DNA of 29,073 nt from a virus (lineage: Duplodnaviria; Heunggongvirae; Uroviricota; Caudoviricetes), in the IMG/VR virus record IMGVR_UViG_2778261396_000002; one strand, written 5' to 3'. The position numbers and the translations under genes are program-made. The notes below the pieces were generated by a model that saw nothing but the letters and a program-made list of their open reading frames with translations, was not told where the DNA came from and searched no databases. Shown one piece after another: positions 2,894 through 21,267 of the stretch (positions are counted from its first letter, which is position 1; the number at the start of each line of letters is the position of its first letter).

Positions 2894-2895
2894 TG

Positions 2896-3456
2896 CTATT
2901 GTGCGGTCGGCTTCAGGAGAGTCTGACCCGGTGTTTTGTGCTCTGCCAGATACTGATGCTGGAATATACACATGCGAATGGCATTACGATATTGACCATT
3001 AATAAAAAACTCATGCATCAATTCACCTTCAACCGTAAAGCCAAGCTTGCGGTAAATGTGAATCGCTTTTTCATTCTCTTTATCGACGATCAGATACAAC
3101 TTATAGAGATTGAGAACGGTGAAGCCATAGTCCATTGCTAATTTGGCGGCACGGGTTGCCAGACCTTTCCCCTGATACTCCGGGGAGATAATTATCTGAA
3201 ATTCTGCGCGGCGATGTACATGGTTAATTTCCACCAGCTCCACCAGACCGGCTTTTTCGCCGTCACATTCCACCACAAAGCGCCGTTCGCTCTGATCGTG
3301 AATATGCTTATCATACAGATCAGAGAGTTCAACAAAGGCTTCGTAGGGTTCCTCAAACCAGTAACGCATCACACTGGCGTTATTGTCGAGTTGATGTACA
3401 TAGCGTAAATCTTCACGCTCCAGCGGGCGTAGCTTAACACTGTGGGCGCTTGGCAT
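2896..3456 (-). CDS. speG: Spermidine N1-acetyltransferase SpeG (186 aa)
   Basis: ORF translation [41 protein letters not shown]… GNAT fold, matches recalled SpeG. Confidence 0.95.
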
Positions 3457-3490
3457 AACGTGTCCTTACATTCCTTAAATCAATAACAGG

Positions 3491-3832
3491 TTAGGGGGTA
3501 ATAACGCGGCCAGTTCGACGGTCCAGGCAGCGCAAAGTATTTGGCTCCCAGTAGGCATTGATGTTGGCGCTTTGCTCACATTTATCTCGGTTATCAAAAG
3601 CGGCGTCGGCTTTATCCCACTCTTTTTCAGTGCGTTTATTCACTTTCTGGCGCAGATTGCGCGTGTCATTCCATTGCTCTTTTTCCATAGCGGCGTGCTG
3701 GCGGCTTTGTGCACTGTCGCCAGACTCAATCACCAGTTTGTTAGTTTCGGCATGAACAGTTGTGCTCAATGCCAGTGCGCAAGGCAGCAGAAAAGCGAGC
3801 AGGCCGATTCGTTTGCTGAGAGTGATTTTCAT
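3491..3832 (-). CDS. ynfB: UPF0482 secreted protein YnfB (113 aa)
   Basis: ORF translation with N-terminal signal peptide [28 protein letters not shown]; synteny upstream of speG. Confidence 0.85.
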
Positions 3833-3966
3833 AATTCATTCCCTGTATGAATGATTAAAGGTGATTCTACACCATCCACTGCGAACGCAAAACGTACCAG
3901 GAGGGTGTTTATATTGATGATATTATGTCGCCCTATAACTATACATGATGTCAATAAGTGACAAAG

Positions 3967-4293
3967 ATGATTAAAACAACGTTACTATTTTTTGCTACTG
4001 CGCTGTGTGAAATTATTGGATGCTTTCTGCCCTGGTTGTGGTTAAAACGAAACGCCAGTATCTGGCTGTTGCTTCCGGCGGGGATTTCACTGGCGCTGTT
4101 TGTTTGGTTGTTAACGTTGCATCCTGCGGCGAGTGGGCGTGTTTACGCGGCTTATGGTGGCGTTTATGTCTGCACGGCGTTGATGTGGCTGCGCGTTGTG
4201 GATGGCGTGAAACTAAGTCTTTATGACTGGACGGGGGCGTTGATTGCGCTTTGCGGCATGTTGATCATTGTTGCGGGCTGGGGGCGCACGTAG
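3967..4293 (+). CDS. ynfA: UPF0060 inner-membrane protein YnfA (108 aa)
   Basis: ORF 3958..4293 (GTG) contains [26 protein letters not shown]… hydrophobic 4-TM protein; ATG at 3967. Confidence 0.85.
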
Positions 4294-4498
4294 GAACATA
4301 AATCCATTTTATCAATAAGATACGAGGAAGTGTCAGCTGACAAAAGGTATTCTATTTCATCTTTTGTCAACCATTCACAGCGCAAATATACGCCTTTTTT
4401 TGTGATCACTCCGGCTTTTTTCGATCTTCATACTTGTATGGTAGTAGTTCAGCTGCGTAGATTTCATGCATCACGACAAGCGATGCAAGGAATCGAAC

Positions 4499-6931: not shown

Positions 6932-8227
6932 TTAATTTTTCATTGCTTCGTTATGGGGCATGGTTGGGGCAAACTCGCTTAACTGTGTATTTAACAAAGC
7001 TACCTGTGCATTATTGTTTTCAGACATCCATTTTCCGTATACCTGAAATACCATTTGCGCATCTGCATGGCCCATCTGGTTTGCTATAAATGCCGGGTTA
7101 GCACCAGCTGTCAGCGACCAGCAGGCATAAGTATGTCTCGACTGATATGATTTTCGATGGCGGAGTCCGGCACGTTTTATCGCTGCGTCCCACATCTGCC
7201 TTATTGAGTCAACGGTAAAATGGTCACCATAATTTTTTACTCTCGCTGACACTTCAGGTTGAAAAACAAAGGTGCATTTTTGTTTTTCTGTTCTGCCATA
7301 CTCTCTGAGGTGAACATCAATGATATGCTCTTTGCTCAGTCTCGTTAATGTCATCTGACTCCGGAGAGCGTCGATTGCTGGCTTAATAAGATGAATGACC
7401 CGATTGGTTCCCGCCTGTGTTTTTGGTACCGTGAAACGGTCTTTTGCTAAATTTCTCCTGATCATCATTGTTCCATTTTTCAGATCTATGTCCTCCCATC
7501 CAAGTGCACACAGCTCACCAGGGCGAACTCCAGTATAAACAGAAACACACCATAAATTTTTTGCTTGCTGATTTCTGCACGCATCGATAAGACGGATAAA
7601 TTCTTCCCGCGAAAGAGGATCCGGAATGGTTCTTGATTCCTTTAATGGCGAGATCCCCTTAAACGGATTATCTGCCAGGTAACCGTTATCAACACCAAAC
7701 TGGAACACGGCGTTAAGATTTGTCATGTAATTATTTACAGTTACAGCCGATCTCCCTGGTTGTGTAACAATATAGTTACTTTTGGGGATCTGGTATCCAG
7801 TCAGTAACTCTTTACGAACCTCCAGTAATTTTTCTTTATTAATCGATGAGGCAAGATTTTTTTCACCGATTATGCTCAGGATATTTTTGATGACGGCACG
7901 GTATGTGTTGAGTGATGTTTTGGCGACTTCAGTTTCTTTCAGTGCCAGAAATTTTTCAGCCAGTTCTTTTATGGTTAAATCTTGTCGGGCCTCACCAAAT
8001 TTTTCCAGATTGCGTGAGGAGGGAAACTGTTTTGCATAGTCGAAAACACCAGTTTTTATTGCGTAACAAACAGAGGAGCGTAGTTCACCTGCAACGCGCC
8101 TGTTTTTTGCTGTGTCAGGAACCCCCAGATTTTCCCTGACTCTTACGTCTTTATAAACAAACCAGATACGTAATTTCCCTCCATGGTTTTCCACGCCTGT
8201 CGGATATTTCATTTCAACTTCTCTCAT
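6932..8227 (-). CDS. intQ: Prophage tyrosine integrase (lambda-type), apparently intact, 431 aa
   Basis: ORF translation; C-terminal catalytic region …RHTYACWSLTAGANPAFIANQMGHADAQMVFQVYGKW… (R..H..Y); alternative start at Met6 (MKYPTG) with better SD. Confidence 0.88.
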   Translation of the reverse strand: MREVEMKYPTGVENHGGKLRIWFVYKDVRVRENLGVPDTAKNRRVAGELRSSVCYAIKTGVFDYAKQFPSSRNLEKFGEARQDLTIKELAEKFLALKETEVAKTSLNTYRAVIKNILSIIGEKNLASSINKEKLLEVRKELLTGYQIPKSNYIVTQPGRSAVTVNNYMTNLNAVFQFGVDNGYLADNPFKGISPLKESRTIPDPLSREEFIRLIDACRNQQAKNLWCVSVYTGVRPGELCALGWEDIDLKNGTMMIRRNLAKDRFTVPKTQAGTNRVIHLIKPAIDALRSQMTLTRLSKEHIIDVHLREYGRTEKQKCTFVFQPEVSARVKNYGDHFTVDSIRQMWDAAIKRAGLRHRKSYQSRHTYACWSLTAGANPAFIANQMGHADAQMVFQVYGKWMSENNNAQVALLNTQLSEFAPTMPHNEAMKN

Positions 8228-8246
8228 TAGTTAGTGTGGTTTTTAG

Positions 8247-8498
8247 TCAAGTAAGATGACGTCTTGGTCTCGCTGATGCCTGGCGCTCAATCCAGCGATC
8301 AATTTCTTCCAGGTTGTAAAAGCATGGACTGTTATCCCATGGCATACCGTCATGAGCGACATGCTTATATTCCCTTCCTTCCATAAACGATTTTTCCCGG
8401 GCCTTTTTTAACGTACCTTTTTTTATTCCTTTCAGCGCAATTAACTGCTCTTCGGATACCCATTTGCCGGGAGAGACAATCATGATTACTTCGCTCAT
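8247..8498 (-). CDS. Putative excisionase/Xis-like small protein (83 aa)
   Basis: Small basic ORF immediately upstream of int on same strand; position only, no recognised motif. Confidence 0.5.
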   Translation of the reverse strand: MSEVIMIVSPGKWVSEEQLIALKGIKKGTLKKAREKSFMEGREYKHVAHDGMPWDNSPCFYNLEEIDRWIERQASARPRRHLT

Positions 8499-8570
8499 CG
8501 ATTTCTTTATCTCTTACATCAGACGAGCGCCGGTTGCAGAATACCAGTCACAACCGGCGACAGTTGAACA

Positions 8571-11042
8571 TTAAGAATCAGCCTGACTCGGGATCAGTTT
8601 TTGCCAGATAACTGAAACGTATTTTGCCTGGTAACGGGCGTCATCAAGTGCATTATGGCGCTCACCTTCGAATGGAATAGCCGTTCTGGCATCGAAGTCT
8701 ATGGCTTTCCCCAGCTCAACGATTGTGCGTACATCGCGATCGTTGTAGTAACGCCACGGGCAGGGGATCCCCTGCCGTTCGTATGAACGGCGCAAAATCG
8801 TGTTGTCGAAGTTGGCTCCATTTCCCCAAACCTGAACAAAAAATTCACCGGAGTTTTCGTCGATAAATTCTCGCAATTGTAACAGTGCATCATCTAACGG
8901 GATTTCATCGGTCATAATGGCAGATTGCGCTTCGCGTGATTGCTTAAGCCACCATTTAATGGTGTCCCGATCAATGACTCCGCCAGCAGTTTCCAGATCG
9001 ATAGTCTTACTAAATTCCGGTCCCATATCTCCGGTTTGCGGATCGAAAAATATTGCACCTATTGAGATGATCGGGGCATCAGGATTTTTTCCCATGGTTT
9101 CAAGGTCGATCATTAGATGGTCACACGTCCTGCTGGTGGATGTGATTTCGTGATGACCGTTCACCTTAATTGGGTGATCTGCCGTCTCGCCAGTTTCATT
9201 ATCGCTATTGTGATGCTGATTGCCGCCAGTGTTCTCCTTGTGTGGATGTTCAGCGCCTTCCATTTCCTCCGGATCATCTTCCTGAACTTCAACCTGATAC
9301 TCTTCATCGAATGTTTCTTGGTATGTTGCGTCGCCCATCACCGCGCCACAATCAGGGCAGTTGCCGCCGCCGGTCTGACCGCAGGCGGTGCAGACTTTTT
9401 CCACTTCCTGTTGCGCTACTGGTTCAGGCTGTTTCGTTTCTGGCTCGTTTTGTAACGCATTTGGACTGTTTTGTTCCGCTTTTTGGTAGTTCCGTTCCGA
9501 TTCATGCTGGTTCTGGTTCACAGAATCGCGGGTCTGGAGCCCCTTAACCCATTTCGGATCATTCGGGTCACTAATCCCTTCAACAAATTCACCACGTGAT
9601 GCAGCAAGCAACTTATCGGCGTCAGGCTGGCTGATATTGGCTGCCTGCATAATTTTGTTTACTTCGTCAGCGGTAACTTTTATCGGCTCTGGTTGTTCTG
9701 AATCTTCAGCGGTATCTACATTTTGCGGTAAGCCCGTGTATGTGCCATTTTTTCGGGCAAAATATTCTTCTTTTGTGATTTCAGTGGCGCCAGCAGCCAG
9801 TGCCTTATCCAGACCAGAGAGTTTGTTTGCGCGACCGTATTTTTCTCCGTCCTTATCTGCGAAGAGGAAATAGAACGGCCCCTCACGCTCTACAGATGGT
9901 TCAGCTTCCGGCGCGGTTTCATTTTTTGGGATATCAGATACCTCAGTTTCCACTGCATCAGTTTGTGTTTCTGATGACTGGAGAACATCAACAGTGCCCA
10001 GGTCTGTTTCTTCATTCTCAAACACGCCCTTTGTCGTCAGGTATTCGCAGATATATTTGTTCAGTGCTACGGGATCTTTGTGAATGTCGATCGGACGCTC
10101 ACGGACAAGGCCAAAAATAGTTTGGCGGTCGTAGCGAAGGGCATCAGGCTGTTTGCGCATTGATGCCGAGATACGCTTCCAGTCTTCGCGGTCGTTGTCG
10201 ATAACTTCTTTTTTTGCCCAGCGATGGATGCTGCCGTCAATGTTTCCGGCATCCACATCACTAGGCCAGAGAGCGTAGGCCAGTTCGTCATCCAGTGTTT
10301 TCCATGTCTGCTTGTATTCGCGATGAATGGCAGCAATGACCGGGCTGATTTTTCCTGTTGAATTTTCAGTGTACTGTTGATTGGCTCTGGCGCGGGCGAG
10401 ATCAACAACAGACGTGTATTTTCCGGTTTCCTTGCGTTCACCTTCGCGACGTTTTTTCCAGATGCGCATCTCTGCCTGAATTTCGGGCCATTTAGCACCA
10501 GGAATACATTTATGCTTAACCCACCCAATGGCGTGCAACTTAAGCTCCGGATACATGGCGTTAACTTCTGGCATTTTCATCAACGCTTCAACGATATGTC
10601 CGTCGAATGTTGCCATGTCTTCCTGCAACAATTCCTGTGCGCTAATAACCATATCAACGGTGATGTTTTCACATGTGTCGAACTTAACCATGACAGCGTT
10701 CTGTACTTCAGGGGCCAGCTTGTCAAAAGTGACGTTCATCGGATCGGATTCAGTCTCAACCGGGACAAAAGAAGCAGACTCCTCATCCCAGCGGTTTTCC
10801 TGCATATATTCAGCATCCCATGAATCGAGGGCAGGGCGGGGTATGCCAGGTTTATCCTCGCAGACAATAAATTTATAAGCGCAGTCCTGAGCAGCCGGAT
10901 AATGTTCCAGGAATTGCCAGTGAAATTTTGCTCGAGCACGGCGTTCGTCGCCAGCTTCAATGGCTGTGGCTACAGCCACAGCGCCTTCTTCCCTTGTTGC
11001 CAGTTCGTCAGGAATAGCGGCGCAAATAAAGACTTTACTCAT
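8571..11042 (-). CDS. ydfE: Large prophage exonuclease: N-terminal domain, acidic linker, CxxC…CxxC zinc ribbon, C-terminal DnaQ-like DEDDh 3'-5' exonuclease (823 aa); full-length counterpart of the K-12 ydfE fragment
   Basis: ORF 8571..11078; start ATG 11042 (MSKVFICAAIPDE…) with GAGG SD; C-terminus has Exo I (MIDLETMG), Exo II (WGNGANFD), Exo III (HNALDDARYQ) motifs. Confidence 0.7.
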   Translation of the reverse strand: MSKVFICAAIPDELATREEGAVAVATAIEAGDERRARAKFHWQFLEHYPAAQDCAYKFIVCEDKPGIPRPALDSWDAEYMQENRWDEESASFVPVETESDPMNVTFDKLAPEVQNAVMVKFDTCENITVDMVISAQELLQEDMATFDGHIVEALMKMPEVNAMYPELKLHAIGWVKHKCIPGAKWPEIQAEMRIWKKRREGERKETGKYTSVVDLARARANQQYTENSTGKISPVIAAIHREYKQTWKTLDDELAYALWPSDVDAGNIDGSIHRWAKKEVIDNDREDWKRISASMRKQPDALRYDRQTIFGLVRERPIDIHKDPVALNKYICEYLTTKGVFENEETDLGTVDVLQSSETQTDAVETEVSDIPKNETAPEAEPSVEREGPFYFLFADKDGEKYGRANKLSGLDKALAAGATEITKEEYFARKNGTYTGLPQNVDTAEDSEQPEPIKVTADEVNKIMQAANISQPDADKLLAASRGEFVEGISDPNDPKWVKGLQTRDSVNQNQHESERNYQKAEQNSPNALQNEPETKQPEPVAQQEVEKVCTACGQTGGGNCPDCGAVMGDATYQETFDEEYQVEVQEDDPEEMEGAEHPHKENTGGNQHHNSDNETGETADHPIKVNGHHEITSTSRTCDHLMIDLETMGKNPDAPIISIGAIFFDPQTGDMGPEFSKTIDLETAGGVIDRDTIKWWLKQSREAQSAIMTDEIPLDDALLQLREFIDENSGEFFVQVWGNGANFDNTILRRSYERQGIPCPWRYYNDRDVRTIVELGKAIDFDARTAIPFEGERHNALDDARYQAKYVSVIWQKLIPSQADS

Positions 11043-11134
11043 TTGTTTTAACCTCATGACAGATTTAAGGATGAACAAATCCCTGCCATTGCTGGCATAT
11101 AAGAATGAAACCGGATATTTATTACGGAACTGTT

Positions 11135-11326
11135 TTAAAGACCTGCCGGGATTTCGATATTATCCTGGTGAATAACTTTATCGACCGGGTAACAGTTACC
11201 GGGAATTTTCTGTTCGGTTGCTGCAGTCATACACTCCTGCATTGTCCTGTGAACACTGACTGCAATATCAACTGGCTCTCCGGAAACAAGAAAAACTGTC
11301 AGAACAAGCACAAATGCTGAATTCAT
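11135..11326 (-). CDS. ydfD: Small prophage protein YdfD (63 aa)
   Basis: Translation MNSAFVLVLTVFLVSGEPVDIAVSVHRTMQECMTAATEQKIPGNCYPVDKVIHQDNIEIPAGL; start overlaps dicB stop (ATGA). Confidence 0.8.
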   Translation of the reverse strand: MNSAFVLVLTVFLVSGEPVDIAVSVHRTMQECMTAATEQKIPGNCYPVDKVIHQDNIEIPAGL

Positions 11327-11511
11327 TGTGCACATCCTTTTGGCATCAGACGTAAACGAGCCAGCATTGAAACAATGCATATTTTATTTAATAGCTCCCG
11401 TTCTTGTTTTCTCTTGTTAATGGCATCTTCAGTAAATACTGGGTTACTGATAGTGACACCAATTTCAAAACAACCTTCAGACGTATTAACGTTTGGTAAT
11501 AACGTTTTCAT
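11323..11511 (-). CDS. dicB: Cell-division inhibitor DicB (62 aa)
   Basis: Translation MKTLLPNVNTSEGCFEIGVTISNPVFTEDAINKRKQERELLNKICIVSMLARLRLMPKGCAQ matches recalled DicB. Confidence 0.9.
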   Translation of the reverse strand: MKTLLPNVNTSEGCFEIGVTISNPVFTEDAINKRKQERELLNKICIVSMLARLRLMPKGCAQ

Positions 11512-11685
11512 TATCGCGTCCTCAACAATGAATTTTGTGATGCAGTGCCTGGTGCCTCCAGGTGACGTTAACCAGTTAACAATTAACGCCGGATACAGAG
11601 AATCCACCCATAACACTGTTTTTGGTTTTAACTGTTCCGCGTGCGCTCAGCCGCATTCACCACATCACAAAATTCACTTTAAAAA

Positions 11686-11738
11686 GGGCGGCAGAGCAGT
11701 CACGGAGTAAAACTGATACCGCCAAACGTCACCAGAAA
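11686..11738 (-). ncRNA. dicF: DicF small RNA (53 nt; ftsZ-targeting)
   Basis: Reverse complement reads TTTCTGGTGACGTTTGGCGGTATCAGTTTTACTCCGTGACTGCTCTGCCGCCC followed by T-run, matching recalled DicF; lies between ydfC and dicB. Confidence 0.85.
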
Positions 11739-12078
11739 ATTGATAACAGAGGGCGTTGCAGCGGGGTTGTCACTTAAGCGTATGGTCAACCTGACAACCC
11801 GGTGTCCTCAACGGGGAAGGAATAACCCCGCCATACTTACCGCCGCGCCATTTCGCGGGTTGCCACAACCGGAAGCGCACGGTCGACGAAAATTTAACGA
11901 CAGGCTATCTATGAACCAGCTACCTCGCCGTGCGCTTTCGCGTTATGGTCTGACTTTTCAGGGAAATATCCTTTCAGTAAACTGTCAGTTCCGGATGCGC
12001 ACCCGTGTCCGGCGCACGCACTCCACCTCACCCGTGGAGAACTCCTTAATTACTAACCTTAGCTTTGTTGATTAGCTA

Positions 12079-12297
12079 CTAACGCGGGTATGTAATCATT
12101 CTGGCAATGCTTAATGCCGCTGCTTTTTCCAGATTGGTGATATCCTGCTCCAGAGCGGACAGATTTTCAGCCTGCTTAGCCCTGGCTTCAGTAGCCCATT
12201 TCAGATCCTGCGCTGCATTAATTTTCTGGCGCATCCACTCATAAAGTTCATCATCGGTATAGTCTGGCGCGATGATGACGGGTTCTCGTTTCTGCAT
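12079..12297 (-). CDS. ydfC: dicB-operon small protein YdfC (72 aa)
   Basis: ORF translation MQKREPVIIAPDYTDDELYEWMRQKINAAQDLKW…; synteny ydfA-ydfB-ydfC-dicF-dicB. Confidence 0.7.
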   Translation of the reverse strand: MQKREPVIIAPDYTDDELYEWMRQKINAAQDLKWATEARAKQAENLSALEQDITNLEKAAALSIARMITYPR

Positions 12298-12326
12298 ACT
12301 GATTCCTCGCGGTGCTGTTTCGCTTA

Positions 12327-12455
12327 TCAGCCGTTAGATTTTGCCGAACTGGAAAGCGCCTGTTTAAATTCGCTGAAGCTGAGAGCTTCTTCGCCTTCGG
12401 CAAGGCCTTCGAAGTATTCTTCGTAAGCCTTTTCCATGATTGTGTCGAAATCCAT
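12327..12455 (-). CDS. ydfB: dicB-operon small protein YdfB (42 aa)
   Basis: Manual translation of minus strand: MDFDTIMEKAYEEYFEGLAEGEEALSFSEFKQALSSSAKSNG*; ATG follows GGTGGGTGAT. Confidence 0.7.
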   Translation of the reverse strand: MDFDTIMEKAYEEYFEGLAEGEEALSFSEFKQALSSSAKSNG

Positions 12456-12456
12456 A

Positions 12457-12612
12457 TCACCCACCTGAATTTCTTTCCAGCCAGCGACGCGCTCCAGATT
12501 CGGTTTTAAACGTTTTGCTTTTGGTATACGTCATTTCGGTGAACGTGCCGTCCTGGTTTGGAAACACGCCACATACCAGAGATTCGTTGTTGCCAAGATC
12601 GATAGTATCCAT
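12457..12612 (-). CDS. ydfA: dicB-operon small protein YdfA (51 aa)
   Basis: Internal Met of ORF 12457..12666: MDTIDLGNNESLVCGVFPNQDGTFTEMTYTKSKTFKTESGARRWLERNSGG. Confidence 0.75.
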   Translation of the reverse strand: MDTIDLGNNESLVCGVFPNQDGTFTEMTYTKSKTFKTESGARRWLERNSGG

Positions 12613-12726
12613 GCTGACCTCATTTCCCCTTAACGCCGGGGTAGCGGAACTGTTTGCTGAGAACACCGTGCGGTGTCTTGATGGAAAATAATTTAGAATA
12701 ACCTAACATGAGAGGCAAGTGTTTTT

Positions 12727-12746
12727 TGTTAGATTGATCTAACAAA
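12727..12746. promoter_or_regulatory. Palindromic operator TTGTTAGAT-TG-ATCTAACAA in dicB-operon promoter region (putative DicA site)
   Basis: Perfect 9+9 inverted repeat between ydfA start and dicA stop; shares TGTTAG…CTAACA half-sites with second site at 13238-13255. Confidence 0.5.
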
Positions 12747-12780
12747 AAGGGTGGGCGCAACTAATCACTTGAAAAGAATG

Positions 12781-13188
12781 TTATTTTATTGATTTATTTT
12801 TACGCGCTTTAAGCATTTCTTCGAAGAGTTTGTTGAAGTTTTCTACTCTTGCGCGCATTTCAGACAGCAAGGCTTCCTGCTCGGAAGATGGAAGAGCATC
12901 GAATAATTCGATCAATTCTTTGTGGTTGGGAGTTAGCTCTGTTTCCACATGAAGTTCTTGTGCAGGCACTGGTGCCTTGTCTTCGTCACCAAACATTAGC
13001 CATGTAGGTGAGCACTTCAGAGCATCCGCTAAAGCAAACAATCGTTTTCCGACTGGCTGGGTTTCGTCTCTTTCCCATTGTGAAATTGTGACGTGAGCAA
13101 CTCCAGCGAGGCGCGCGGCTTCTCGTTGTGTTAAGCGTAATTCTTTTCGTCGCGCCAGAACTCGCTGGCCCAGGGTTCTTGTATCCAT
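12781..13188 (-). CDS. dicA: HTH (Xre/cI-like) repressor DicA homolog (135 aa)
   Basis: ORF translation; HTH LTQREAARLAGVAHVTISQWE; C-terminal …LKCSPTWLMFGDEDK…EMRARVENFNKLFEEMLKAR resembles DicA; N-terminus diverged from K-12 as recalled. Confidence 0.8.
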   Translation of the reverse strand: MDTRTLGQRVLARRKELRLTQREAARLAGVAHVTISQWERDETQPVGKRLFALADALKCSPTWLMFGDEDKAPVPAQELHVETELTPNHKELIELFDALPSSEQEALLSEMRARVENFNKLFEEMLKARKNKSIK

Positions 13189-13210
13189 AGTTAGGTAATT
13201 CTAATTTTTC

Positions 13211-13255
13211 TTGACTTAGGTATCCCGCGCACAATAATGTTAGAAAAATCTAACA
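13211..13255 (+). promoter_or_regulatory. dicC promoter (-35 TTGACT, 17-bp spacer, -10 ATAATG) overlapped by operator TGTTAGAAAAATCTAACA (13238-13255)
   Basis: Sigma70-like hexamers read directly; palindrome immediately downstream of -10; located in divergent dicA/dicC intergenic region. Confidence 0.5.
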
Positions 13256-13269
13256 AGAGGGGGGCTTTG

Positions 13270-13497
13270 ATGCTTAAAGTTGACGCAATTACTTTTTTTG
13301 GCAGCAAAACAAAGCTTGCCAATGCCGCAGGAGTGAGGCTGGCAAGTGTTGCTGCTTGGGGGATACTGGTTCCTGAAGGTCGCGCGATGCGTCTACAGGA
13401 GGCATCTGGCGGGGAGCTTCAGTATGATCCCAAAGTTTATGATGAATATCGTAAGACGAAGCGGGCGGGGCGGTTGAACAATGAAAATCACTCCTGA
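13270..13497 (+). CDS. dicC: Cro-like regulator DicC (75 aa)
   Basis: Internal ATG of ORF 13237..13497: MLKVDAITFFGSKTKLANAAGVRLASVAAWG…EGRAMRLQEASGGELQYDPKVYDEYRKTKRAGRLNNENHS. Confidence 0.85.
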   Translation: MLKVDAITFFGSKTKLANAAGVRLASVAAWGILVPEGRAMRLQEASGGELQYDPKVYDEYRKTKRAGRLNNENHS

Positions 13498-14002
13498 ACA
13501 GGCTCGTGAGGCTCTGGATGCCTGGATATGTCGACCAGGAATGACACAGGAGCAGGCGACGATATTAATCACTGAAGCATTCTGGGCTTTGAAAGAGCGC
13601 CCGAACATCGATGTTCAGCGTGTCACAGATGAAGGTGGCGCGGTTGATCAGCGAGCGCTTGGTGTTAATCGAGTGAAGATATTCGAACGCTGGAAGGCTA
13701 TCGATACCAGGGATAAGCGTGAAAAGTTCACGGCGCTAGTGCCTGCGATTATGGAGGCTATCCGGATTAGTGATTTCAGGTTGTATCGTGAAATTACTGA
13801 CGGAAAAAGCATCACGTGCATGATCGCCGGGTTAAACAAAGAATATGGCGATGTGGTGGAGTCCGGACTGCTTTTTGCTGATCCTGCCGTAGTGGATCGT
13901 GAAACTGACGAACTTATAGAAAAAGCAATTGCTTTCAAGCTTGCGTATCGACAGCAATACCAACAAAAAGCTGGATGGAATTATGAGCCTTCTTTTTGCT
14001 GA
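13481..14002 (+). CDS. YdaT-like prophage protein (cII-position gene), 173 aa
   Basis: ORF translation MKITPEQAREALDAWICRPGMTQEQA…; position directly after cro-like gene; family assignment from memory only. Confidence 0.45.
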   Translation: MKITPEQAREALDAWICRPGMTQEQATILITEAFWALKERPNIDVQRVTDEGGAVDQRALGVNRVKIFERWKAIDTRDKREKFTALVPAIMEAIRISDFRLYREITDGKSITCMIAGLNKEYGDVVESGLLFADPAVVDRETDELIEKAIAFKLAYRQQYQQKAGWNYEPSFC

Positions 14003-14948
14003 ACGCCCACTGGTTATAAACACGCAGCTGGCAATGAAAATTGGCTTAAACGAAGCCATTGTTTTGCAACAACTGCACTACTGGTTGAGAGATACCAACT
14101 CCGGCATGGAATGTGATGGTGTTCGCTGGATTTATAACACAACGGAACAATGGCTGGAACAGTTCCCATTCTGGTCAGAGTCAACGTTAAAGCGCGCGTT
14201 TGCAAGTCTGAAAACGCTGGGGCTTTTGCGTTGTGAAAAGCTCAATAAATCAAAGCGCGATATGACCAATTTCTACACGATCAACTATGGGAGCGAGCTT
14301 TTAGATGGTGGCAAATTGAGCGAATCCATCGGTTCAAAATGCGCCGCTCCATCAGGTCAAAATGACACGATGGAAGAGGTCAAAATGAAACGCTCCATTG
14401 GTTCAAAACGACCCAATGTCATCGGGTCAAAATGGCCTGATGATCTTACAGAGAATACAACAGAGATTACTACAGAGAATAAAAACACTTTTCGTCCGGA
14501 AGCTTCGCAACCGGACCCGCAGACGACTGAACAGGATTTTTTAACCCGGAACTCCGACGCGGTTGTGTTTAGTGCGAAAAAACGCCAGTGGGGTAGCAGG
14601 GAGGATTTGGCGTGTGCGCAGTGGATCTGGGGGCGGATCGTGGGTCTCTACGAACAGGCAGCCAGTGATGATGGCGAGATCATGCGACCAAAAGAGCCTA
14701 ACTGGACTGCCTGGGCCAATGACGTGCGCACAATGCGGATGCTGGATGGCAGAAGCCACAGACAAATTTGCGAAATGTTTGGTCGGGTTCAGCGAGATCC
14801 ATTCTGGGTAAAAAACATCATGAGCCCGTCAAAGCTCCGCGAAAAATGGGACGAACTGGTCATCCGCCTGGGACGTTCACCTGTACAGCGTTGTGTTAAT
14901 CATATTTCTGAACCGGATACAGAAATTCCGCCTGGTTTCAGAGGATAA
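13983..14948 (+). CDS. Phage replication initiation protein (lambda O-like, HTH N-domain), 321 aa
   Basis: ORF 13929..14948; ATG 13983 MSLLFAERPLVINTQLAMKIGLNEAIVLQQLHYWL…; repeated SIGSK peptide motifs encoded by DNA iterons. Confidence 0.7.
   Translation: MSLLFAERPLVINTQLAMKIGLNEAIVLQQLHYWLRDTNSGMECDGVRWIYNTTEQWLEQFPFWSESTLKRAFASLKTLGLLRCEKLNKSKRDMTNFYTINYGSELLDGGKLSESIGSKCAAPSGQNDTMEEVKMKRSIGSKRPNVIGSKWPDDLTENTTEITTENKNTFRPEASQPDPQTTEQDFLTRNSDAVVFSAKKRQWGSREDLACAQWIWGRIVGLYEQAASDDGEIMRPKEPNWTAWANDVRTMRMLDGRSHRQICEMFGRVQRDPFWVKNIMSPSKLREKWDELVIRLGRSPVQRCVNHISEPDTEIPPGFRG
14327..14436 (+). repeat. Five direct iteron-like repeats (core GGT(T)CAAAA(T/C)G, ~23-bp spacing) inside the replication gene – candidate prophage origin
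   Basis: Cores at about 14331, 14355, 14378, 14400, 14424 read directly from sequence. Confidence 0.55.
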
Positions 14949-14988
14949 GTGTTGATTTCAGGTCATGAGGTAATTTTAAGGGGGACTT

Positions 14989-15411
14989 GTGGCAAAAGTT
15001 TTTACACAAGAAGAGCGGGAAAAAATTAAATGGCAGGTGGTGGAACTCGTGCGCCAGAGCGGCCGTGAGACGTTACGGCAACTGGAAGCTAAAACAGGTG
15101 CGACTAGATATCTGATGAGCGTTCTTGCCAGAGAGCTGGTAGCCAGTGGCGATGTATACAACTCCGGCTACGGGTTATTCCCCTCTGAACAGGCGCGTAA
15201 GGACTGGCAAAACGCCCGCAAAAAACTCTCGAGGGCAAAGGTGAAGAAACCTGCTGTGGTTGATCCGGACCTTATCTGGTCATCACCTGACGGAGAAATA
15301 CGTCGCTACGACAGTCGCCTAAACATAATCTGTCGCGAGTGCCGGAAGAGCGAAGTTATGCAGCGCATACTGGCTTTCTATCAGGGTAATTTTCAGGACG
15401 TGGCGCAGTGA
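14989..15411 (+). CDS. Hypothetical prophage protein (140 aa, GTG start)
   Basis: ORF with AGGGGGA SD 4-5 nt upstream of GTG; stop overlaps next gene start (GTGA). Confidence 0.45.
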   Translation: MAKVFTQEEREKIKWQVVELVRQSGRETLRQLEAKTGATRYLMSVLARELVASGDVYNSGYGLFPSEQARKDWQNARKKLSRAKVKKPAVVDPDLIWSSPDGEIRRYDSRLNIICRECRKSEVMQRILAFYQGNFQDVAQ

Positions 15412-15854
15412 GTGCACCGGCAACCATTCTTGATATGTGCTGTGGCAGCCGCATGTTCTGGTTCGATAAGTCTGACGAACGGGCGATATTCAGCGATATC
15501 AGAAAAGAAGGATACACATTACGCAATGGGAGACGCTTGATTATCAGCCCTGACATTATCGCAGATTTTCGTGCATTATCATTTGCAGACGCATCTTTTT
15601 CGATGGTTGTATTAGACCCTCCGCATCTTGAGAGTGTTGGTGATAACGCCTGGATGGGAAAGAAATATGGACGGCTGAATAAAGATGCCTGGCGTGATGA
15701 TTCGCGACAGAGATTTAAAGAAGCCTTTCGGGTGTTGAGGCCGCACGGCGTTCTGATTTTTTAATGGAATGAAACGCAAATACCGGTAAGCCAGATTCTG
15801 GCACTGACAGACAGAAAACCTGTTATCTGTCAACGAACAGGGAAAAAACGATAA
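15408..15854 (+). pseudogene. SAM-dependent (gamma-class-like amino-) methyltransferase remnant with in-frame TAA at 15762-15764
   Basis: Motif I-like LDMCCGSRMF and motif IV-like VVLDPPH; same frame continues after the TAA for 29 more codons; total still short for a DNA MTase. Confidence 0.4.
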
Positions 15855-16026
15855 AACCCACTGGATTATTTTTATGAAAGAGGCATCCAGTGAGTAGATT
15901 CGTAAGGCTACAGATACGTATATCTGAATAATTAAATTCAGTTCTGTAAATAAAATTTAATCCTTAACCGGATGGATTTCTGCACCCTCAGAACATCAGG
16001 AGGCCGCCCGAAAGGGCGGTAGTGAA

Positions 16027-16137
16027 ATGCGAAAGTTCAAAATTATTATTGAAACGGGAATAGCTGGTGGAGATTTTGAGGATGTATTCGAAGTGGACGA
16101 TGACGCAACACCTGAGGAAATTCATGACGGAGCATAA
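16027..16137 (+). CDS. Small acidic ORF (36 aa) preceded by AGGAGG and a GAAA-tetraloop hairpin
   Basis: ATG 16027 … MRKFKIIIETGIAGGDFEDVFEVDDDATPEEIHDGA*; below ORF-track size cutoff; manual translation. Confidence 0.3.
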   Translation: MRKFKIIIETGIAGGDFEDVFEVDDDATPEEIHDGA

Positions 16138-16186
16138 GAAATTTTCTTTAACTACTGCAATTACTCATACCACGAAATAAAAGACG

Positions 16187-16378
16187 ATGAGGAAGAACAA
16201 AGTGGCTGATTTTTGTTCAGCTAAATATAACATCAGTTTTGAAGAGCGGGATGAACTATTAATGGACTATGGTGAGTTACGCGGTGGAAGTGCTGCTGAT
16301 GTCGAATCCTAGCGTGATGACTATGAAGCGGGAAAAACTCCGGTCGAAGCATATTGTGATGAGTGGGGCGATGAATGA
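16187..16378 (+). pseudogene. Small ORF (63 codons) with in-frame amber TAG at 16310-16312
   Basis: MRKNKVADFCSAKYNISFEERDELLMDYGELRGGSAADVES*RDDYEAGKTPVEAYCDEWGDE*; stop overlaps next ORF start (ATGA). Confidence 0.35.
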
Positions 16379-16662
16379 GCGAGATTAATTATCAGGAAGG
16401 GCATGAAACGGCGGGGCAAGCAAAACCAGTGGCATGGCGATATCGCTACGTGAAAAAAGGCGTTACGGACTTTCAGGGGAAGTAGTGGTCTGGTGACTGG
16501 AAATATGTACCGAAAAAAGAGGATTGTAACGACAGGCCGAACTATCAAATTCAGGCCTTATTCACTGCCTCACCAGTCCCAGTTACATCAGAAGAACTGG
16601 TTAAAGCTGTGCACTTTTATGAACAACTAAAACGCGAAAATCCACCAACATCCGGCAACTAG
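16375..16662 (+). pseudogene. Small ORF (95 codons) with in-frame amber TAG at 16483-16485
   Basis: MSEINYQEGHETAGQAKPVAWRYRYVKKGVTDFQGK*WSGDWKYVPKKEDCNDRPNYQIQALFTASPVPVTSEELVKAVHFYEQLKRENPPTSGN*. Confidence 0.35.
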
Positions 16663-16916
16663 ATTAATGGATTAACTATGTCGGTTAAACGACCAGCCAA
16701 CTGAAAAAGCGGAAACCTGATTACAGGTTGCCAGATAAGGCAATGAGCTACCTGGCGCGGAACGGACTGATAAGTATGGGGAATGTTTTACGATGAACCT
16801 TTAGACTAAAGAGTTTGTAACGCTATGTAAGTGATTTTTTCTGGTTTAGATATTTATATGTCCGGCCAAATTGAGGTGTGTTTAAATGTAATTGCACATT
16901 GATTGTAGGAGGAATA

Positions 16917-17096
16917 ATGAAAAACGCATTGCAGTTTTTGTTTGTTGCGTTCTGGTTGTTCGCATCATGTATGCCCATCATCTTCACAGCAAGGTATATG
17001 GAAAAAGTTGATGTTTTGATATTAATATTTGGATATATAAATGCCCTTTTTTTAGGGGTGTTCATGGCGGTCATGTGCATTGAATACTGGCGGTAA
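16917..17096 (+). CDS. Small two-TM membrane protein (59 aa)
   Basis: AGGAGG SD at 16907-16912 then ATG 16917: MKNALQFLFVAFWLFASCMPIIFTARYMEKVDVLILIFGYINALFLGVFMAVMCIEYWR. Confidence 0.45.
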   Translation: MKNALQFLFVAFWLFASCMPIIFTARYMEKVDVLILIFGYINALFLGVFMAVMCIEYWR

Positions 17097-17430
17097 ATAC
17101 AGCGAACTCCATTGGTTTAGTTGGATATTTACTGTGCTGGACAAAAACGGTTTGCGGGGAAATCTTAGTTAAGTAGAATGACTGCGGGTGCTTGAGGCTA
17201 TCTGCCTCGGGCATGGACACCAACGGCAGATAGAGAAAAGCCCCAGTTAACATTACGCGTCCTGCAAGACGCTTAACATTAATCTGAGGCCAATTTCATG
17301 CTAGACACATGTAGGTTAGCCTCTTACGTGCCGAAAGGCACGGAGAAGCAGGCTATTGTTAACACCAAGCTGTAATGTCCCCTTTGAACCATTCTAAAAT
17401 GTCCCCAGACAATTCTCTGGGGGATTTTTC

Positions 17431-18744
17431 ATGATCAAAGAGACTGTTACGATGAGTCATAAGGAACTCCACCGACTTCAGATTATTCAGGAACAAGCTG
17501 CGGCACGCATTGGCATTTCTATTCGGCAGGTTAAACGTCTGGTGCAACGGTATAGAAATGAAGGGCCTTCTGGTCTGGTTTCCCACCGACGTGGAAAGCG
17601 TCCTAATAATTCCTTTTCTACTGAATTCAGAGCAACAGTAATTTCACTCCTCAAAGGCCGTTACGCTGATTTTGGACCTACGTTTGCGTGCGAAAAATTG
17701 CGCGAGATACACGGTTTATCTTTATCCGTTGAAACTCTCAGAAAGTGGATGATAGAAGAGGGGTTATGGCGTGAACGCCGTCGTAAAATTGCCCGTATAT
17801 ATCAACGCCGCATGCGACGACCATCTTACGGTGAACTGATCCAGATTGATGGCTCACCTCATGACTGGTTTGAAAATCGAGGCCCCAGATGTACACTGAT
17901 CGTTTTCATTGATGATGCCACCAGTGCGTTGATGGCGTTGCGTTTTGTGCCTGCTGAAACAACCCGGGCTTACATGGAAACCCTCCGGGGTTACCTTAAT
18001 GATCATGGCGTACCGCTCGCTCTCTACTCTGATAGACACAGTATATTCAGGGTAAATAACCCAGAGCGGGAAGGTGAGCTGACCCAGTTCACTCGTGCGA
18101 TAAAGACACTGGGCATCGAGCCAATCCATGCCAACAGCCCGCAGGCAAAAGGGCGGGTAGAGCGCGCCAATCAGACACTACAGGACAGGCTGGTCAAAGA
18201 AATGCGGCTTCAGAATATCAGTGATATTGAAACAGCAAATGCATGGTTGCCGACCTTTATTGAAGCCTATAACAACCGGTTCGCTACGTCGCCTCGTACT
18301 ACTGATAATGCTCATCTTGATGTGCACCATTCTGAAGAGGAACTGGGTTATATCTTCAGCCTACAGGCGAAGCGCGTTCTGTCTAAAAATCTCACTTTCC
18401 AGTACAAAAGCAGTGCGTTTCAGGTACGCAGTGAGGGCCGGGGATATCGACTTAGGCATTCGGTTGTTACTGTATGCGAGAACTTTGACGGTGAAATTAA
18501 CGTTCTGTATGACGGGAAAGCGCTGGGCTGGGAAAAGTATGTTGATGGCCCGGAGCCTATACCACTGGATGATGAAAAGAGTGTCCATGAACGAGTGGAT
18601 AATGCCCGTATTGATTTACGCTCAAAATACTATGTTAAACCTAAAGCTGACCATCCCTGGCTTACGCGCCGAACGCAAAGTCATCAGCAAGTTAAGCCCC
18701 CGAAGTTACCTAAAAAGAAGCCTGATCCCGATAAAAAAGATTGA
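17431..18744 (+). CDS. DDE transposase, integrase-core (rve) type with N-terminal HTH; ISNCY(IS1202/ISPlu15-group)- or IS481-like (437 aa)
   Basis: ORF translation: HTH (GISIRQVKRLVQRY), DDE-type core (…IQIDGSPHDW…ALYSDRHSIF…ANSPQAKGRVERANQTLQ…); family from memory. Confidence 0.8.
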   Translation: MIKETVTMSHKELHRLQIIQEQAAARIGISIRQVKRLVQRYRNEGPSGLVSHRRGKRPNNSFSTEFRATVISLLKGRYADFGPTFACEKLREIHGLSLSVETLRKWMIEEGLWRERRRKIARIYQRRMRRPSYGELIQIDGSPHDWFENRGPRCTLIVFIDDATSALMALRFVPAETTRAYMETLRGYLNDHGVPLALYSDRHSIFRVNNPEREGELTQFTRAIKTLGIEPIHANSPQAKGRVERANQTLQDRLVKEMRLQNISDIETANAWLPTFIEAYNNRFATSPRTTDNAHLDVHHSEEELGYIFSLQAKRVLSKNLTFQYKSSAFQVRSEGRGYRLRHSVVTVCENFDGEINVLYDGKALGWEKYVDGPEPIPLDDEKSVHERVDNARIDLRSKYYVKPKADHPWLTRRTQSHQQVKPPKLPKKKPDPDKKD

Positions 18745-21015: not shown

Positions 21016-21267
21016 ATGATGAACATCGAAGAACTGCGTAAAATTTTTTGTGAAGATGGCCTCTATGCTGTGTGCGTTGAAAATGGAAATCTTGTTAGTC
21101 ATTACCGCATTATGTGTTTGCGAAAGAATGGGGCTGCGTTAATTAATTTTGTGGATGCTCGGGTCACGGACGGATTTATCTTGCGCGAAGGTGAGTTTGT
21201 CACTTCATTACAGGCATTGAAAGAGATCGGAATAAAAGCTGGCTTTTCTGCTTTTTCAGGAGAATAA
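21016..21267 (+). CDS. rem: Prophage protein Rem (83 aa)
   Basis: ORF translation MMNIEELRKIFCEDGLYAVCVENGNLVSHYRIMCLRKNGAALINF…. Confidence 0.8.
   Translation: MMNIEELRKIFCEDGLYAVCVENGNLVSHYRIMCLRKNGAALINFVDARVTDGFILREGEFVTSLQALKEIGIKAGFSAFSGE

What the first reader, a model, noticed from the sequence alone, without database searches (positions are those of the whole stretch)
11135..13500. Complete dicB-operon (ydfA-ydfB-ydfC-DicF-dicB-ydfD) under a divergent DicA homolog with TGTTAG/CTAACA operators
The cell-division-inhibition module (DicF sRNA plus DicB) is intact. The repressor is a DicA homolog with a diverged N-terminal HTH region. Two palindromes sharing TGTTAG…CTAACA half-sites sit in the dicB-operon promoter region (12727-12746) and over the dicC promoter (13238-13255). 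The ~340 bp between ydfC and DicF contains strong inverted repeats (e.g. GGTTGTCA…TGACAACC) consistent with the RNase III/E processing needed to release DicF.
Basis: partly seen in the sequence, partly recalled or inferred. Interest (0 to 1): 0.4.

Follow-up and report, generated by a model that had tools for sequence, protein, structure and literature searches.

The report
Qin dicBF operon, variant DicA repressor
This is the well-known Qin-prophage cell-division-inhibition operon (DicF small RNA plus DicB), almost base-for-base the same as in E. coli K-12, controlled by a common alternative version of the DicA/DicC switch that keeps the same operator half-sites, so it is ordinary.

Summary
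Window 11135-12680 is the K-12 Qin dicBF operon. dicB and ydfD are 100% identical, and the 53-nt DicF is identical at 11686-11738(-), with an Rfam score of 76.7 bits. Only about 700 bp (12684-13374) differs from K-12. That stretch is a swapped immunity cassette holding the dicB promoter, a DicA homolog (55% aa), the dicA/dicC intergenic region and the 5' half of dicC.

Both proteins pass NCBI's DicA and DicC family cut-offs. The two exact TGTTAG-N6-CTAACA palindromes exist (none expected by chance). They sit where K-12 has its operators and share half-sites with K-12 Oc, which is experimentally DicA-bound. Two weaker sites were missed: 12691-12708 inside the dicB core promoter and 13189-13206 over the dicA start.

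The recognition helix is conserved, which fits the unchanged half-sites. The cited hairpin (11764-11800) is real but is probably not the RNase III site. A 23-bp helix (11863-11948) contains the inferred cut that yields the published 190-nt precursor.

The allele occurs in about 10% of complete E. coli genomes, including BL21(DE3). Verdict: already known, low interest.

The parts
11084..11097 (-). Terminator-like hairpin after ydfD, with a T-rich tail running to about 11074
   Evidence: Consensus scan. With the inferred TSS at 12682, the published 1,608-nt ydfABC-dicFB-ydfD transcript would end near 11075.
11135..11326 (-). ydfD (lysis protein, DUF1482), 63 aa
   Evidence: 100% nt identity to MG1655 ydfD. 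Pfam DUF1482, 91 bits.
11323..11511 (-). dicB (cell-division inhibitor), 62 aa
   Evidence: 100% nt identity to MG1655 dicB. Pfam DicB, 136.8 bits.
11686..11738 (-). DicF sRNA, the 53-nt mature form including its terminator hairpin
   Evidence: Rfam RF00039, 76.7 bits against a gathering score of 48, full length. Exact match to the annotated MG1655 dicF.
11764..11800 (-). It lies inside the 190-nt precursor, 26-62 nt upstream of the DicF 5' end.
   Evidence: Nearly invariant in 73 unique dicF loci, 98.5% canonical pairs, no compensatory changes.
11863..11948 (-). 23-bp helix (arms 11948-11923 and 11888-11863) with a variable apical region. Proposed RNase III substrate; the inferred cut is near 11870/11869.
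   Evidence: MFE fold, z = -3.3. Position +813/814 and the 190-nt species come from PMC10448788. The arms are conserved (9-13 of 26 columns vary) while the apical region is hypervariable (25 of 34 columns vary).
12079..12297 (-). ydfC, 72 aa
   Evidence: 218/219 nt identical to MG1655, with one aa change, T36 against N.
12327..12455 (-). ydfB, 42 aa
   Evidence: Protein identical to MG1655.
12457..12612 (-). ydfA (DUF1391), 51 aa
   Evidence: 47/51 aa identical to MG1655. Pfam DUF1391, 96.9 bits.
12613..12682 (-). Conserved 5' leader of the dicB-operon transcript. It has a 5'-proximal hairpin (ACACC GCAC GGUGU) and a hairpin just upstream of the Shine-Dalgarno sequence (CCCC...GGGG).
   Evidence: The same leader follows many different immunity alleles. 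The hairpin is kept with four different stem sequences. The TSS near 12682 is inferred.
12690..12718 (-). dicB-operon promoter (dicBp): -35 TTGCCT at 12718-12713, 17-nt spacer, -10 TAAATT at 12695-12690
   Evidence: Read from the sequence. The -35/17/-10/CATCAA scaffold is the same in K-12 (TTGACC/TAATCT) and in other alleles. It is too weak for the consensus scan threshold.
12691..12708 (.). Promoter-proximal operator-like site ATTTAGAATAACCTAACA, overlapping the -10 element and the spacer of dicBp
   Evidence: 2 mismatches to TGTTAG-N6-CTAACA. Positionally equivalent to K-12 GATTAGCCATGACTAACA.
12727..12744 (.). Promoter-distal operator TGTTAGATTGATCTAACA, exact and just upstream of the -35 element; the palindrome extends to 12723-12748
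   Evidence: Equivalent to K-12 TGTATGCTATAGCTAACA. Conserved in Rac-type L006 as TGTTAGATCAACCTAACA.
12684..13374 (.). Swapped immunity cassette, the only stretch that differs markedly from K-12 Qin
   Evidence: In the pairwise alignment, identity falls to roughly 40-80% per 60 columns (24-49 matches) here and is 90-100% on both sides.
12781..13188 (-). DicA-family repressor, 135 aa: an N-terminal HTH_3 domain plus a short conserved C-terminal domain, with no peptidase S24 domain
   Evidence: NCBIfam NF007257 'transcriptional repressor DicA', 224.7 bits against a cut-off of 101. Pfam HTH_3 only. The N-terminal domain aligns with the P22 C2 N-terminal domain, E = 1e-18.
13189..13206 (.). Weak operator-like site AGTTAGGTAATTCTAATT, abutting the dicA start codon (Oa-like)
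   Evidence: 3 mismatches. The same position holds AGTTAGCTAATGCTAAAT in K-12. K-12 Oa was not bound by DicA in an in-vivo assay (PMC3441716).
13211..13238 (+). dicC promoter: TTGACT, 16 nt, AATAAT
   Evidence: Promoter scan, 10 of 12 matches. Same layout as K-12.
13238..13255 (.). Oc-equivalent operator TGTTAGAAAAATCTAACA, covering the end of the -10 element and the start region of dicC
   Evidence: Exact match. Aligned to K-12 Oc. Across alleles the half-sites are invariant and the spacer varies.
13270..13497 (+). DicC (Cro-like) homolog, 75 aa
   Evidence: NCBIfam NF007282 DicC, 165.8 bits against a cut-off of 130. Pfam P22_Cro. 87% identical to K-12 DicC; the 3' half is identical at the DNA level.
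8571..11042 (-). Full-length exonuclease gene, the intact counterpart of the K-12 pseudogene ydfE. It is probably a downstream part of the same early-left transcription unit, followed by xis (8247-8498) and int (6932-8227).
   Evidence: KE58 annotation. K-12 has only IS2-truncated remnants. Co-transcription is inferred, and the terminator-like site at 11084-11097 may limit it.
21016..21267 (+). rem, the antirepressor of K-12 DicA
   Evidence: 100% nt identity to MG1655 rem. Its role in K-12 comes from PMC10448788. Action on this DicA allele is untested.

Best explanation
What it is. The region is the early-left (PL-like) operon of a Qin-type lambdoid prophage together with its immunity switch.

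Repression. The DicA-family repressor (12781-13188) is inferred to bind as a dimer to 18-bp TGTTAG-N6-CTAACA operators. Binding at 12691-12708 and 12727-12744 would occlude dicBp. That keeps ydfABC-dicF-dicB-ydfD silent. Binding at 13238-13255 would block the divergent dicC promoter. By analogy with K-12 it would also stimulate dicA.

Derepression. The repressor has no RecA-cleavable domain. Derepression is therefore expected through an antirepressor (Rem, present and identical to K-12) or through the DicC/Cro side of a bistable switch.

After derepression. One polycistronic RNA is inferred to start near 12682. RNase III would cut the 23-bp helix at about 11870 to give the roughly 190-nt precursor. 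RNase E would cut in the A/U-rich stretch at 11738/11739 to give the 53-nt DicF. DicF represses ftsZ translation, DicB blocks division through MinC, and YdfD is a lysis protein.

Difference from K-12. The only difference is a roughly 700-bp allelic replacement of the immunity cassette. It keeps the operator half-sites and the recognition helix.

Shown here: the sequence identities, family memberships, operator positions and their conservation, and the predicted helices.
Inferred: the binding, the TSS, the cleavage positions and the action of Rem.
For: Operon identity with K-12:
- ydfD, dicB and DicF are 100% identical and the spacer matches at 566/567 positions.
- DicF scores 76.7 bits in Rfam.

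Repressor and partner protein:
- The DicA and DicC family models are passed.
- Only an HTH_3 domain is found and the protein is 135 aa.

Operators:
- The exact palindromes are non-random, 2 observed against 0 in all shuffles.
- The same four-site layout occurs in K-12 and in Rac-type loci.
- K-12 Oc has the same half-sites, is DicA-dependent in vivo and is killed by a half-site point mutation.
- Across IMG/VR alleles the half-sites are invariant while the 6-bp spacers vary.

Promoter:
- The promoter scaffold and the CATCAA leader are conserved across many immunity alleles.

RNA processing:
- The published processing scheme and transcript sizes (190 nt, +813/814, 1,608 nt) fit a TSS at 12682, the 23-bp helix and the terminator-like site.
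- The helix arms are conserved and the apex is variable.

Antirepressor:
- rem is identical to K-12.
Against: - No binding, transcript or processing data exist for this allele. Everything functional is carried over from K-12.
- No compensatory base-pair changes support either RNA helix, only conservation and wobble-compatible changes.
- The K-12 equivalents of the weak sites (Oa, Om) were not bound by DicA in an in-vivo assay, so 13189-13206 may not be a DicA site.
- The dicBp hexamers are weak, 8 of 12 matches, below the scan threshold.
- The published 1,146-nt ydfABC-dicF transcript would end near 11537 with my TSS, not at the DicF terminator.
- Rem was paired with K-12 DicA, which is only 55% identical to this repressor.
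Confidence: 0.88

Rival explanations
1. The cassette is heteroimmune. Despite the shared TGTTAG/CTAACA half-sites, this DicA allele and K-12 DicA would discriminate their own operators. They would do so through the central 6 bp by indirect readout, as in 434 and P22, or through flanking bases. On this view the swap creates a new immunity specificity.
For: Spacers are allele-typical. K-12-type sites have self-complementary YYATRR spacers (TCATAA, TTATGA, CCATGG, TTATAA). Window-type sites have A/T-rich, non-palindromic spacers (ATTTTT, ACTTTT, ATATTC, ATCAAT). The whole HTH domain, the operators and the DicC N-terminus were exchanged as one block, as expected for a coherent specificity unit. 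Outside the recognition helix the N-terminal domain is only 51% identical.
Against: The recognition-helix positions H, V, S/T and Q, and the helix-2 TQR motif, are the same in both alleles. Spacers also vary within a single allele type. A genuinely different half-site (CCTTAG/CTAAGG) exists in the PPompW allele, which shows what a specificity change looks like in this family.
Confidence: 0.35
2. The hairpin GGGUUGUCA...UGACAACCC (11764-11800) is the RNase III processing site that releases DicF.
For: It is a perfect 9-bp stem plus a 4-bp extension directly upstream of DicF. It is almost invariant in 73 loci.
Against: A cut there would give a species of roughly 80-115 nt, not the 190-nt RNase III product mapped in K-12 for a sequence that differs at a single base outside this hairpin. 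The stem is much shorter than the 23-bp helix at 11863-11948, whose 3' arm contains the position expected for a 190-nt product.
Confidence: 0.07
3. The palindromes are not repressor operators. They could be chance A/T-rich palindromes, DicC-only sites, or a weak terminator for dicA (12723-12748 lies 33 nt past the dicA stop codon).
For: 12723-12748 could fold as an A/U-rich hairpin in the dicA transcript. DicC proteins are 84-92% identical across alleles and could read the shared TTAG/CTAA core.
Against: Exact 12-base matches occur twice within 530 bp and nowhere else in 29 kb, with 0 in shuffles. They lie at the positions of the K-12 operators. K-12 Oc binding depends on DicA. The hairpin lacks G+C pairs and a downstream U-run.
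Confidence: 0.05

Closest known systems
E. coli K-12 Qin prophage dicA-dicC / dicBF operon (ydfABC-dicF-dicB-ydfDE)
   Same: The gene order and orientation are the same. DicF, DicB and YdfD are identical and the ydfC-dicB spacer is near-identical. The promoter geometry, the four operator positions and the TTGTTAG half-site are shared, and rem is identical.
   Different: A roughly 700-bp immunity cassette is replaced (DicA 55% aa, DicC 87% aa, different operator spacers). The distal dicBp operator is a perfect palindrome here and imperfect in K-12. The left arm (exonuclease, xis, int) and the ydaT-family gene are intact here but decayed in K-12, which also lacks window 13760-18560.
Same immunity allele in other E. 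coli, including the BL21(DE3) Qin-like prophage, and 'Escherichia phage Rac' from strain 442/2 (MN652886)
   Same: The immunity region is 99% identical at the DNA level in BL21(DE3) and is found in 566 of 5426 complete genomes. The 442/2 DicA is 94% identical in protein sequence and has TGTTAG-N6-CTAACA sites.
   Different: In Rac-type prophages (QML220601, L006) the same cassette controls a different early-left operon carrying kilR and sieB rather than dicB and dicF.
Phage P22 C2 repressor / Cro immunity region
   Same: The N-terminal HTH domain is about 45% identical to the P22 C2 N-terminal domain, with Val33, Gln37 and the WER motif conserved. The operator is an 18-bp two-fold site (ATTTAAGATATCTTAAAT in P22). 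DicC matches Pfam P22_Cro.
   Different: The half-site sequence differs. There is no C-terminal S24 autoproteolysis domain, so RecA-mediated cleavage is not expected. There are two clear sites per side rather than three.
PPompW / O157-type DicA allele
   Same: The architecture is the same, and the recognition helix is identical to the window's repressor (VAHVTISQWERDETQP). Overall identity is 66%.
   Different: The operators are CCTTAG-N6-CTAAGG. Helix 2 reads SQA instead of TQR, which is a candidate specificity determinant (inference).
Gifsy-type short repressors with antirepressors (GfoR/GfoA)
   Same: It is a short, non-cleavable repressor with an antirepressor gene (rem) on the same prophage (PMC10448788).
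   Different: Rem action has been shown only for K-12 DicA. No test was made here for this allele.

Membership tests
DicF RNA (Rfam RF00039) | Covariance-model score at or above the gathering threshold, over the full length | tested here: met
   76.7 bits against 48, model positions 1-52 of 52.
DicF RNA (Rfam RF00039) | Sequence of the ftsZ-pairing region and the terminator hairpin as in K-12 | tested here: met
   The 53-nt MG1655 dicF is found exactly at 11686-11738(-).
DicF RNA (Rfam RF00039) | [quoted passage not shown] | not testable with these tools
   The precursor matches K-12 at 566/567 positions, and K-12 processing is published. The helix and the A/U-rich site are predicted only.
DicA repressor family (NCBIfam NF007257) | Profile score above the curated cut-off | tested here: met
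   224.7 bits against 101, profile positions 1-134 of 135.
DicA repressor family (NCBIfam NF007257) | Short HTH repressor without an S24 peptidase domain, divergent from a Cro-like dicC | tested here: met
   135 aa, and only HTH-type domain families match in Pfam. dicC is divergent at 13270-13497.
DicA repressor family (NCBIfam NF007257) | Binds TTGTTAG-type inverted-repeat operators and represses dicBp and dicCp | not testable with these tools
   Sites with the K-12 Oc half-sites are present at the equivalent positions. Binding itself was not tested.
DicC (NCBIfam NF007282 / Pfam P22_Cro) | Profile score above the curated cut-off | tested here: met
   165.8 bits against 130. P22_Cro scores 45.9 bits against 30.2.
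DicB (Pfam PF05358) | Profile match, and identity to the K-12 protein | tested here: met
   136.8 bits. 62 of 62 aa identical.
Lambdoid cI/cro immunity region | Divergent repressor and cro genes with shared operators overlapping both promoters, plus a second operator set at the early-left promoter | tested here: met
Lambdoid cI/cro immunity region | Tripartite operators (three sites per side) | tested here: inconclusive
   Only two TTAG/CTAA-type sites per side were found at up to 3 mismatches. The literature speaks of three in K-12.
Lambdoid cI/cro immunity region | RecA-stimulated autocleavage of the repressor | tested here: not met
   No S24 domain, and the protein is 135 aa. K-12 dicBp is not induced by mitomycin C.

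The most novel reading that the evidence does not exclude
Two DicA alleles that are only 55% identical read the same TTGTTAG half-site. Qin-type and Rac-type prophages carrying either allele would then cross-repress one another, forming one shared immunity group, and Rem would act on both. Operator specificity in this family would be set outside the recognition helix, by helix-2 residue 22: Arg with TG-TTAG operators, Ala with CC-TTAG operators in the PPompW allele. Separately, the conserved roughly 70-nt PL leader, whose 5' hairpin is kept through four different stem sequences, could be an undescribed nut/put-like or stabilising RNA module shared by many lambdoid prophages.
Probability: 0.3. 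Interest if true: 0.35.

Novelty: already known. Interest (0 to 1): 0.1.

Why it matters
It matters little beyond annotation. The dicBF module and its DicA/DicC switch are well characterised in K-12. This allele is common and is even present in BL21(DE3). The useful by-products are:
- a precise operator and promoter map for the second major DicA allele;
- the observation that the half-sites are shared between alleles, so cross-talk between co-resident prophages is plausible;
- a candidate specificity residue;
- the placement of the published RNase III cut in a specific 23-bp helix.

Tried and rejected
- Covariation test of the two RNA helices. 121 dicF loci gave 73 unique sequences and 9 representatives below 96% identity. 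The region is too conserved: there are no compensatory changes, so the structure is supported only by conservation and wobble-compatible substitutions.
- Rfam scan at E<=1 over 10900-13700. Nothing was found for the ydfC-dicF spacer or the leader, only DicF and a sub-threshold STnc100 match.
- Small ORFs in the ydfC-dicF spacer: 36 aa and 40 aa on the - strand and 111 aa on the + strand. I considered them and rejected them as coding. They use GTG or TTG starts with no evident Shine-Dalgarno sequence, and they lie inside the processed RNA precursor.
- Consensus promoter scan. It misses dicBp because each hexamer matches 4 of 6, 8 of 12 in all against a scan threshold of 9. The promoter was placed by comparison across alleles instead.
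- Exact nucleotide of the RNase III cut from the paper's supplement. The colour marking is lost in the text copy, so the position rests on the +813/814 numbering and the 190-nt length.
- Cronobacter phage phiES15 (52% aa) and the MNEKTLGQR-type allele have no TTAG-N6-CTAA sites. The motif is therefore not universal in the wider family.
- The large protein databases, structure prediction and fold search were not used, because curated family models already settle membership.

Full report
**What is in the sequence**

On the - strand the ORF list and the sequence give these genes:
- ydfD, 11135-11326
- dicB, 11323-11511
- ydfC, 12079-12297
- ydfB, 12327-12455
- ydfA, 12457-12612
- a 135-aa HTH protein, 12781-13188

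A divergent 75-aa ORF lies at 13270-13497 on the + strand. Rfam places a full-length DicF at 11686-11737(-), scoring 76.7 bits against a gathering score of 48. Pfam recognises DicB, DUF1482 (YdfD), DUF1391 (YdfA), HTH_3 and P22_Cro. NCBIfam places the two regulators in the DicA family (224.7 bits against 101) and the DicC family (165.8 bits against 130).

**Comparison with K-12**

I aligned window 11000-13600 with a K-12-type Qin locus and compared each feature with MG1655.
- dicB, ydfD and the 53-nt DicF are identical. DicF lies at window 11686-11738.
- ydfB is identical in protein sequence. ydfC has one amino-acid change and ydfA has four.
- The 567-nt ydfC-dicB spacer differs at one base, 11930.
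- Only 12684-13374 is diverged. Identity resumes abruptly on both sides, at the start of the operon leader on the left and in the middle of dicC on the right.

This is a classic lambdoid immunity-cassette exchange. It carries the dicB promoter and operators, dicA, the dicA/dicC intergenic region and the 5' half of dicC.

**Genomic context**

The window is colinear with the Qin prophage of E. coli KE58 next to rspB, at 99.5% identity over 25.5 kb. This copy is less decayed than K-12 Qin.
- int, xis and the full-length exonuclease are intact. The exonuclease is the K-12 pseudogene ydfE.
- The ydaT-family gene is intact. In K-12 it survives as ydfX.
- K-12 lacks window 13760-18560.

The dicB operon matches in 4762 of 5426 complete E. 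coli genomes. This particular immunity allele occurs in 566 of them, including BL21(DE3) at 99.3%. An 88%-identical copy sits in a Rac-type prophage, where it controls a kilR/sieB operon instead. A GenBank record for a Rac phage of strain 442/2 already labels the 94%-identical protein as dicA.

**Operators**

TGTTAG-N6-CTAACA occurs exactly twice in the window, at 12727-12744 and 13238-13255. None of 100 shuffles contained a match. Allowing mismatches adds 12691-12708 (2 mismatches) and 13189-13206 (3 mismatches).

K-12 has sites at the four equivalent positions. Its exact site is Oc, TTGTTAGTCATAACTAACAA. Yun et al. showed in vivo that DicA acts through Oc and that a single A->C change in CTAACA abolishes this. 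The weaker Om and Oa sites were not bound (PMC3441716).

I extracted the DicA homologs and their flanks from the K-12, phage and IMG/VR loci that contain dicF.
- K-12-type alleles keep TGTTAG/CTAACA.
- Window-type alleles keep it too.
- The central 6 bp varies in both types.
- The PPompW/O157 allele instead has CCTTAG-N6-CTAAGG.
- A more distant allele has unrelated inverted repeats in the same promoter scaffold.

Invariant half-sites with drifting spacers are the expected signature of functional operators.

**Promoters**

For dicC the scan finds TTGACT, 16 nt, AATAAT at 13211-13238. The Oc-like operator therefore covers the end of the -10 element and the start site, as in K-12.

For the dicB operon I read -35 TTGCCT at 12718-12713, a 17-nt spacer, and -10 TAAATT at 12695-12690. 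The start would be near the A of CATCAA at 12682. This is an inference, supported by two observations.
- The same scaffold, TTGAC-like, 17 nt, TAAATT or TAATCT, then CATCAA, recurs downstream of many different immunity alleles.
- The numbers in Ragunathan et al. fit it. Position +813/814 maps to 11870/11869. That gives a species of about 187 nt to the DicF terminator, against the published 190 nt. A transcript of 1,608 nt ends near 11075, at the terminator-like hairpin 11097-11084.

The weaker 12691-12708 is the site inside the core promoter.

**The repressor**

Overall identity to K-12 DicA is 55%: 51% in residues 1-70 and 67% in residues 91-135. The recognition helix is nearly conserved, VAHVTISQWERD against ISHVSVSQWERG, as is the helix-2 TQR motif.

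The N-terminal domain aligns with the P22 C2 DNA-binding domain (E = 1e-18). The P22 operator is likewise an 18-bp two-fold site read by Val33 and Gln37, and both residues are conserved here.

The PPompW allele has the window's recognition helix but SQA in place of TQR, and it has CC instead of TG at the outer operator positions. I infer that residue 22 may read the outer bases. This is a hypothesis only.

The protein has no S24 domain. As for K-12 DicA, control by an antirepressor is expected. rem in this window is 100% identical to K-12 rem. Whether it acts on this allele is unknown.

**RNA processing**

The 340-nt ydfC-DicF spacer folds more stably than shuffled versions, z = -3.3. It lies 26-62 nt upstream of DicF, inside the 190-nt RNase III product described for K-12.

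The fold also contains a 23-bp helix with arms at 11948-11923 and 11888-11863. The inferred RNase III cut, about 11870, falls in its 3' arm.

I examined 73 unique precursor sequences.
- In the arms, 9-13 of 26 columns vary, mostly through wobble-compatible changes.
- 95% of cells in the long helix form canonical pairs.
- The apical region is hypervariable, with 25 of 34 columns varying.
- No compensatory double changes were seen, so this is conservation and not covariation.

The single difference from K-12, at 11930, turns a U-G pair into a C-G pair in this helix. The DicF 5' end lies in an A/U-rich stretch, AUCAA|UUUUCUGG, which suits RNase E. This last point is an inference.

**Verdict**

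The finding is correct and is already explained by published work on K-12 Qin. What is specific to this window is a common alternative DicA/DicC allele with the same operator half-sites. The open question is whether the two alleles are homo- or heteroimmune, which I rate at about 0.35 for heteroimmune. The interest is low.

Noticed in passing
window 12613-12682 (- strand): The roughly 70-nt leader of the early-left transcript (CAUCAAGACACCGCACGGUGUUCUCAGCAAACAGUUCCGCUACCCCGGCGUUAAGGGG...) is conserved downstream of many unrelated immunity alleles. It also lies upstream of different first genes. Its 5'-proximal hairpin is kept with four different stem sequences: ACACC/GGUGU, CAACGA/UCGUUG, GCAC/GUGC and AUCAC/GUGAU. 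It has no Rfam match. It may be a stabilising or nut/put-like element.
   Followed up: partly
window 11479-11688 (- strand): There is a sub-threshold but full-length match to Rfam STnc100 (RF02076): 34.4 bits against a gathering score of 47, E = 4e-5. It covers the stretch from the DicF terminator to the dicB start, that is, the dicB 5' UTR.
   Followed up: no
window 17186-17357 (+) and 17431-18744 (+): A sok antitoxin/hok-leader match (RF01794, 104 bits) is followed directly by a 437-aa ORF lying where KE58 annotates a partial ISNCY-family transposase. No intact hok ORF lies between them. This looks like a second hok/sok locus cut by an IS, separate from hokD further right.
   Followed up: partly
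window 13481-14002 (+) and 13760-18560: An intact YdaT-family (CII-like) gene follows dicC. K-12 Qin lacks 13760-18560, which makes K-12 ydfX the truncated remnant of this gene. The extra 4.8 kb holds a gene of unknown function, a DUF977 gene, a SAM-dependent methyltransferase gene and decayed ORFs.
   Followed up: partly
window 21016-21267 (+): rem, the antirepressor of K-12 DicA, is 100% identical to K-12 although the repressor is only 55% identical. BL21(DE3), with the same repressor allele, carries a different Rem protein accession.
   Followed up: no
window 24203-24595 (+) and 27105-27490 (+): There are two cspA-thermoregulator matches (154 and 113 bits). The first covers the prophage cold-shock gene cspB. 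The second probably covers cspI, judging by K-12 gene order, but this was not mapped. Both are part of the known Qin late region.
   Followed up: no
L006 (E. coli QML220601) 2385-3306; L004 (PPompW) 3197-4472: The same immunity cassette, 88% identical at the DNA level, drives a kilR/sieB early-left operon in a Rac-type prophage. The PPompW allele has CCTTAG/CTAAGG operators with an identical recognition helix. This suggests that helix-2 residue 22 is a specificity determinant.
   Followed up: partly
window 6932-11042 (- strand): int (6932-8227), xis (8247-8498) and a full-length 823-aa exonuclease (8571-11042) are intact here. In K-12 intQ and ydfE are IS2-disrupted pseudogenes. The exonuclease matches RecE (exodeoxyribonuclease VIII) only partially, 282 bits against a cut-off of 1269.
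   Followed up: partly
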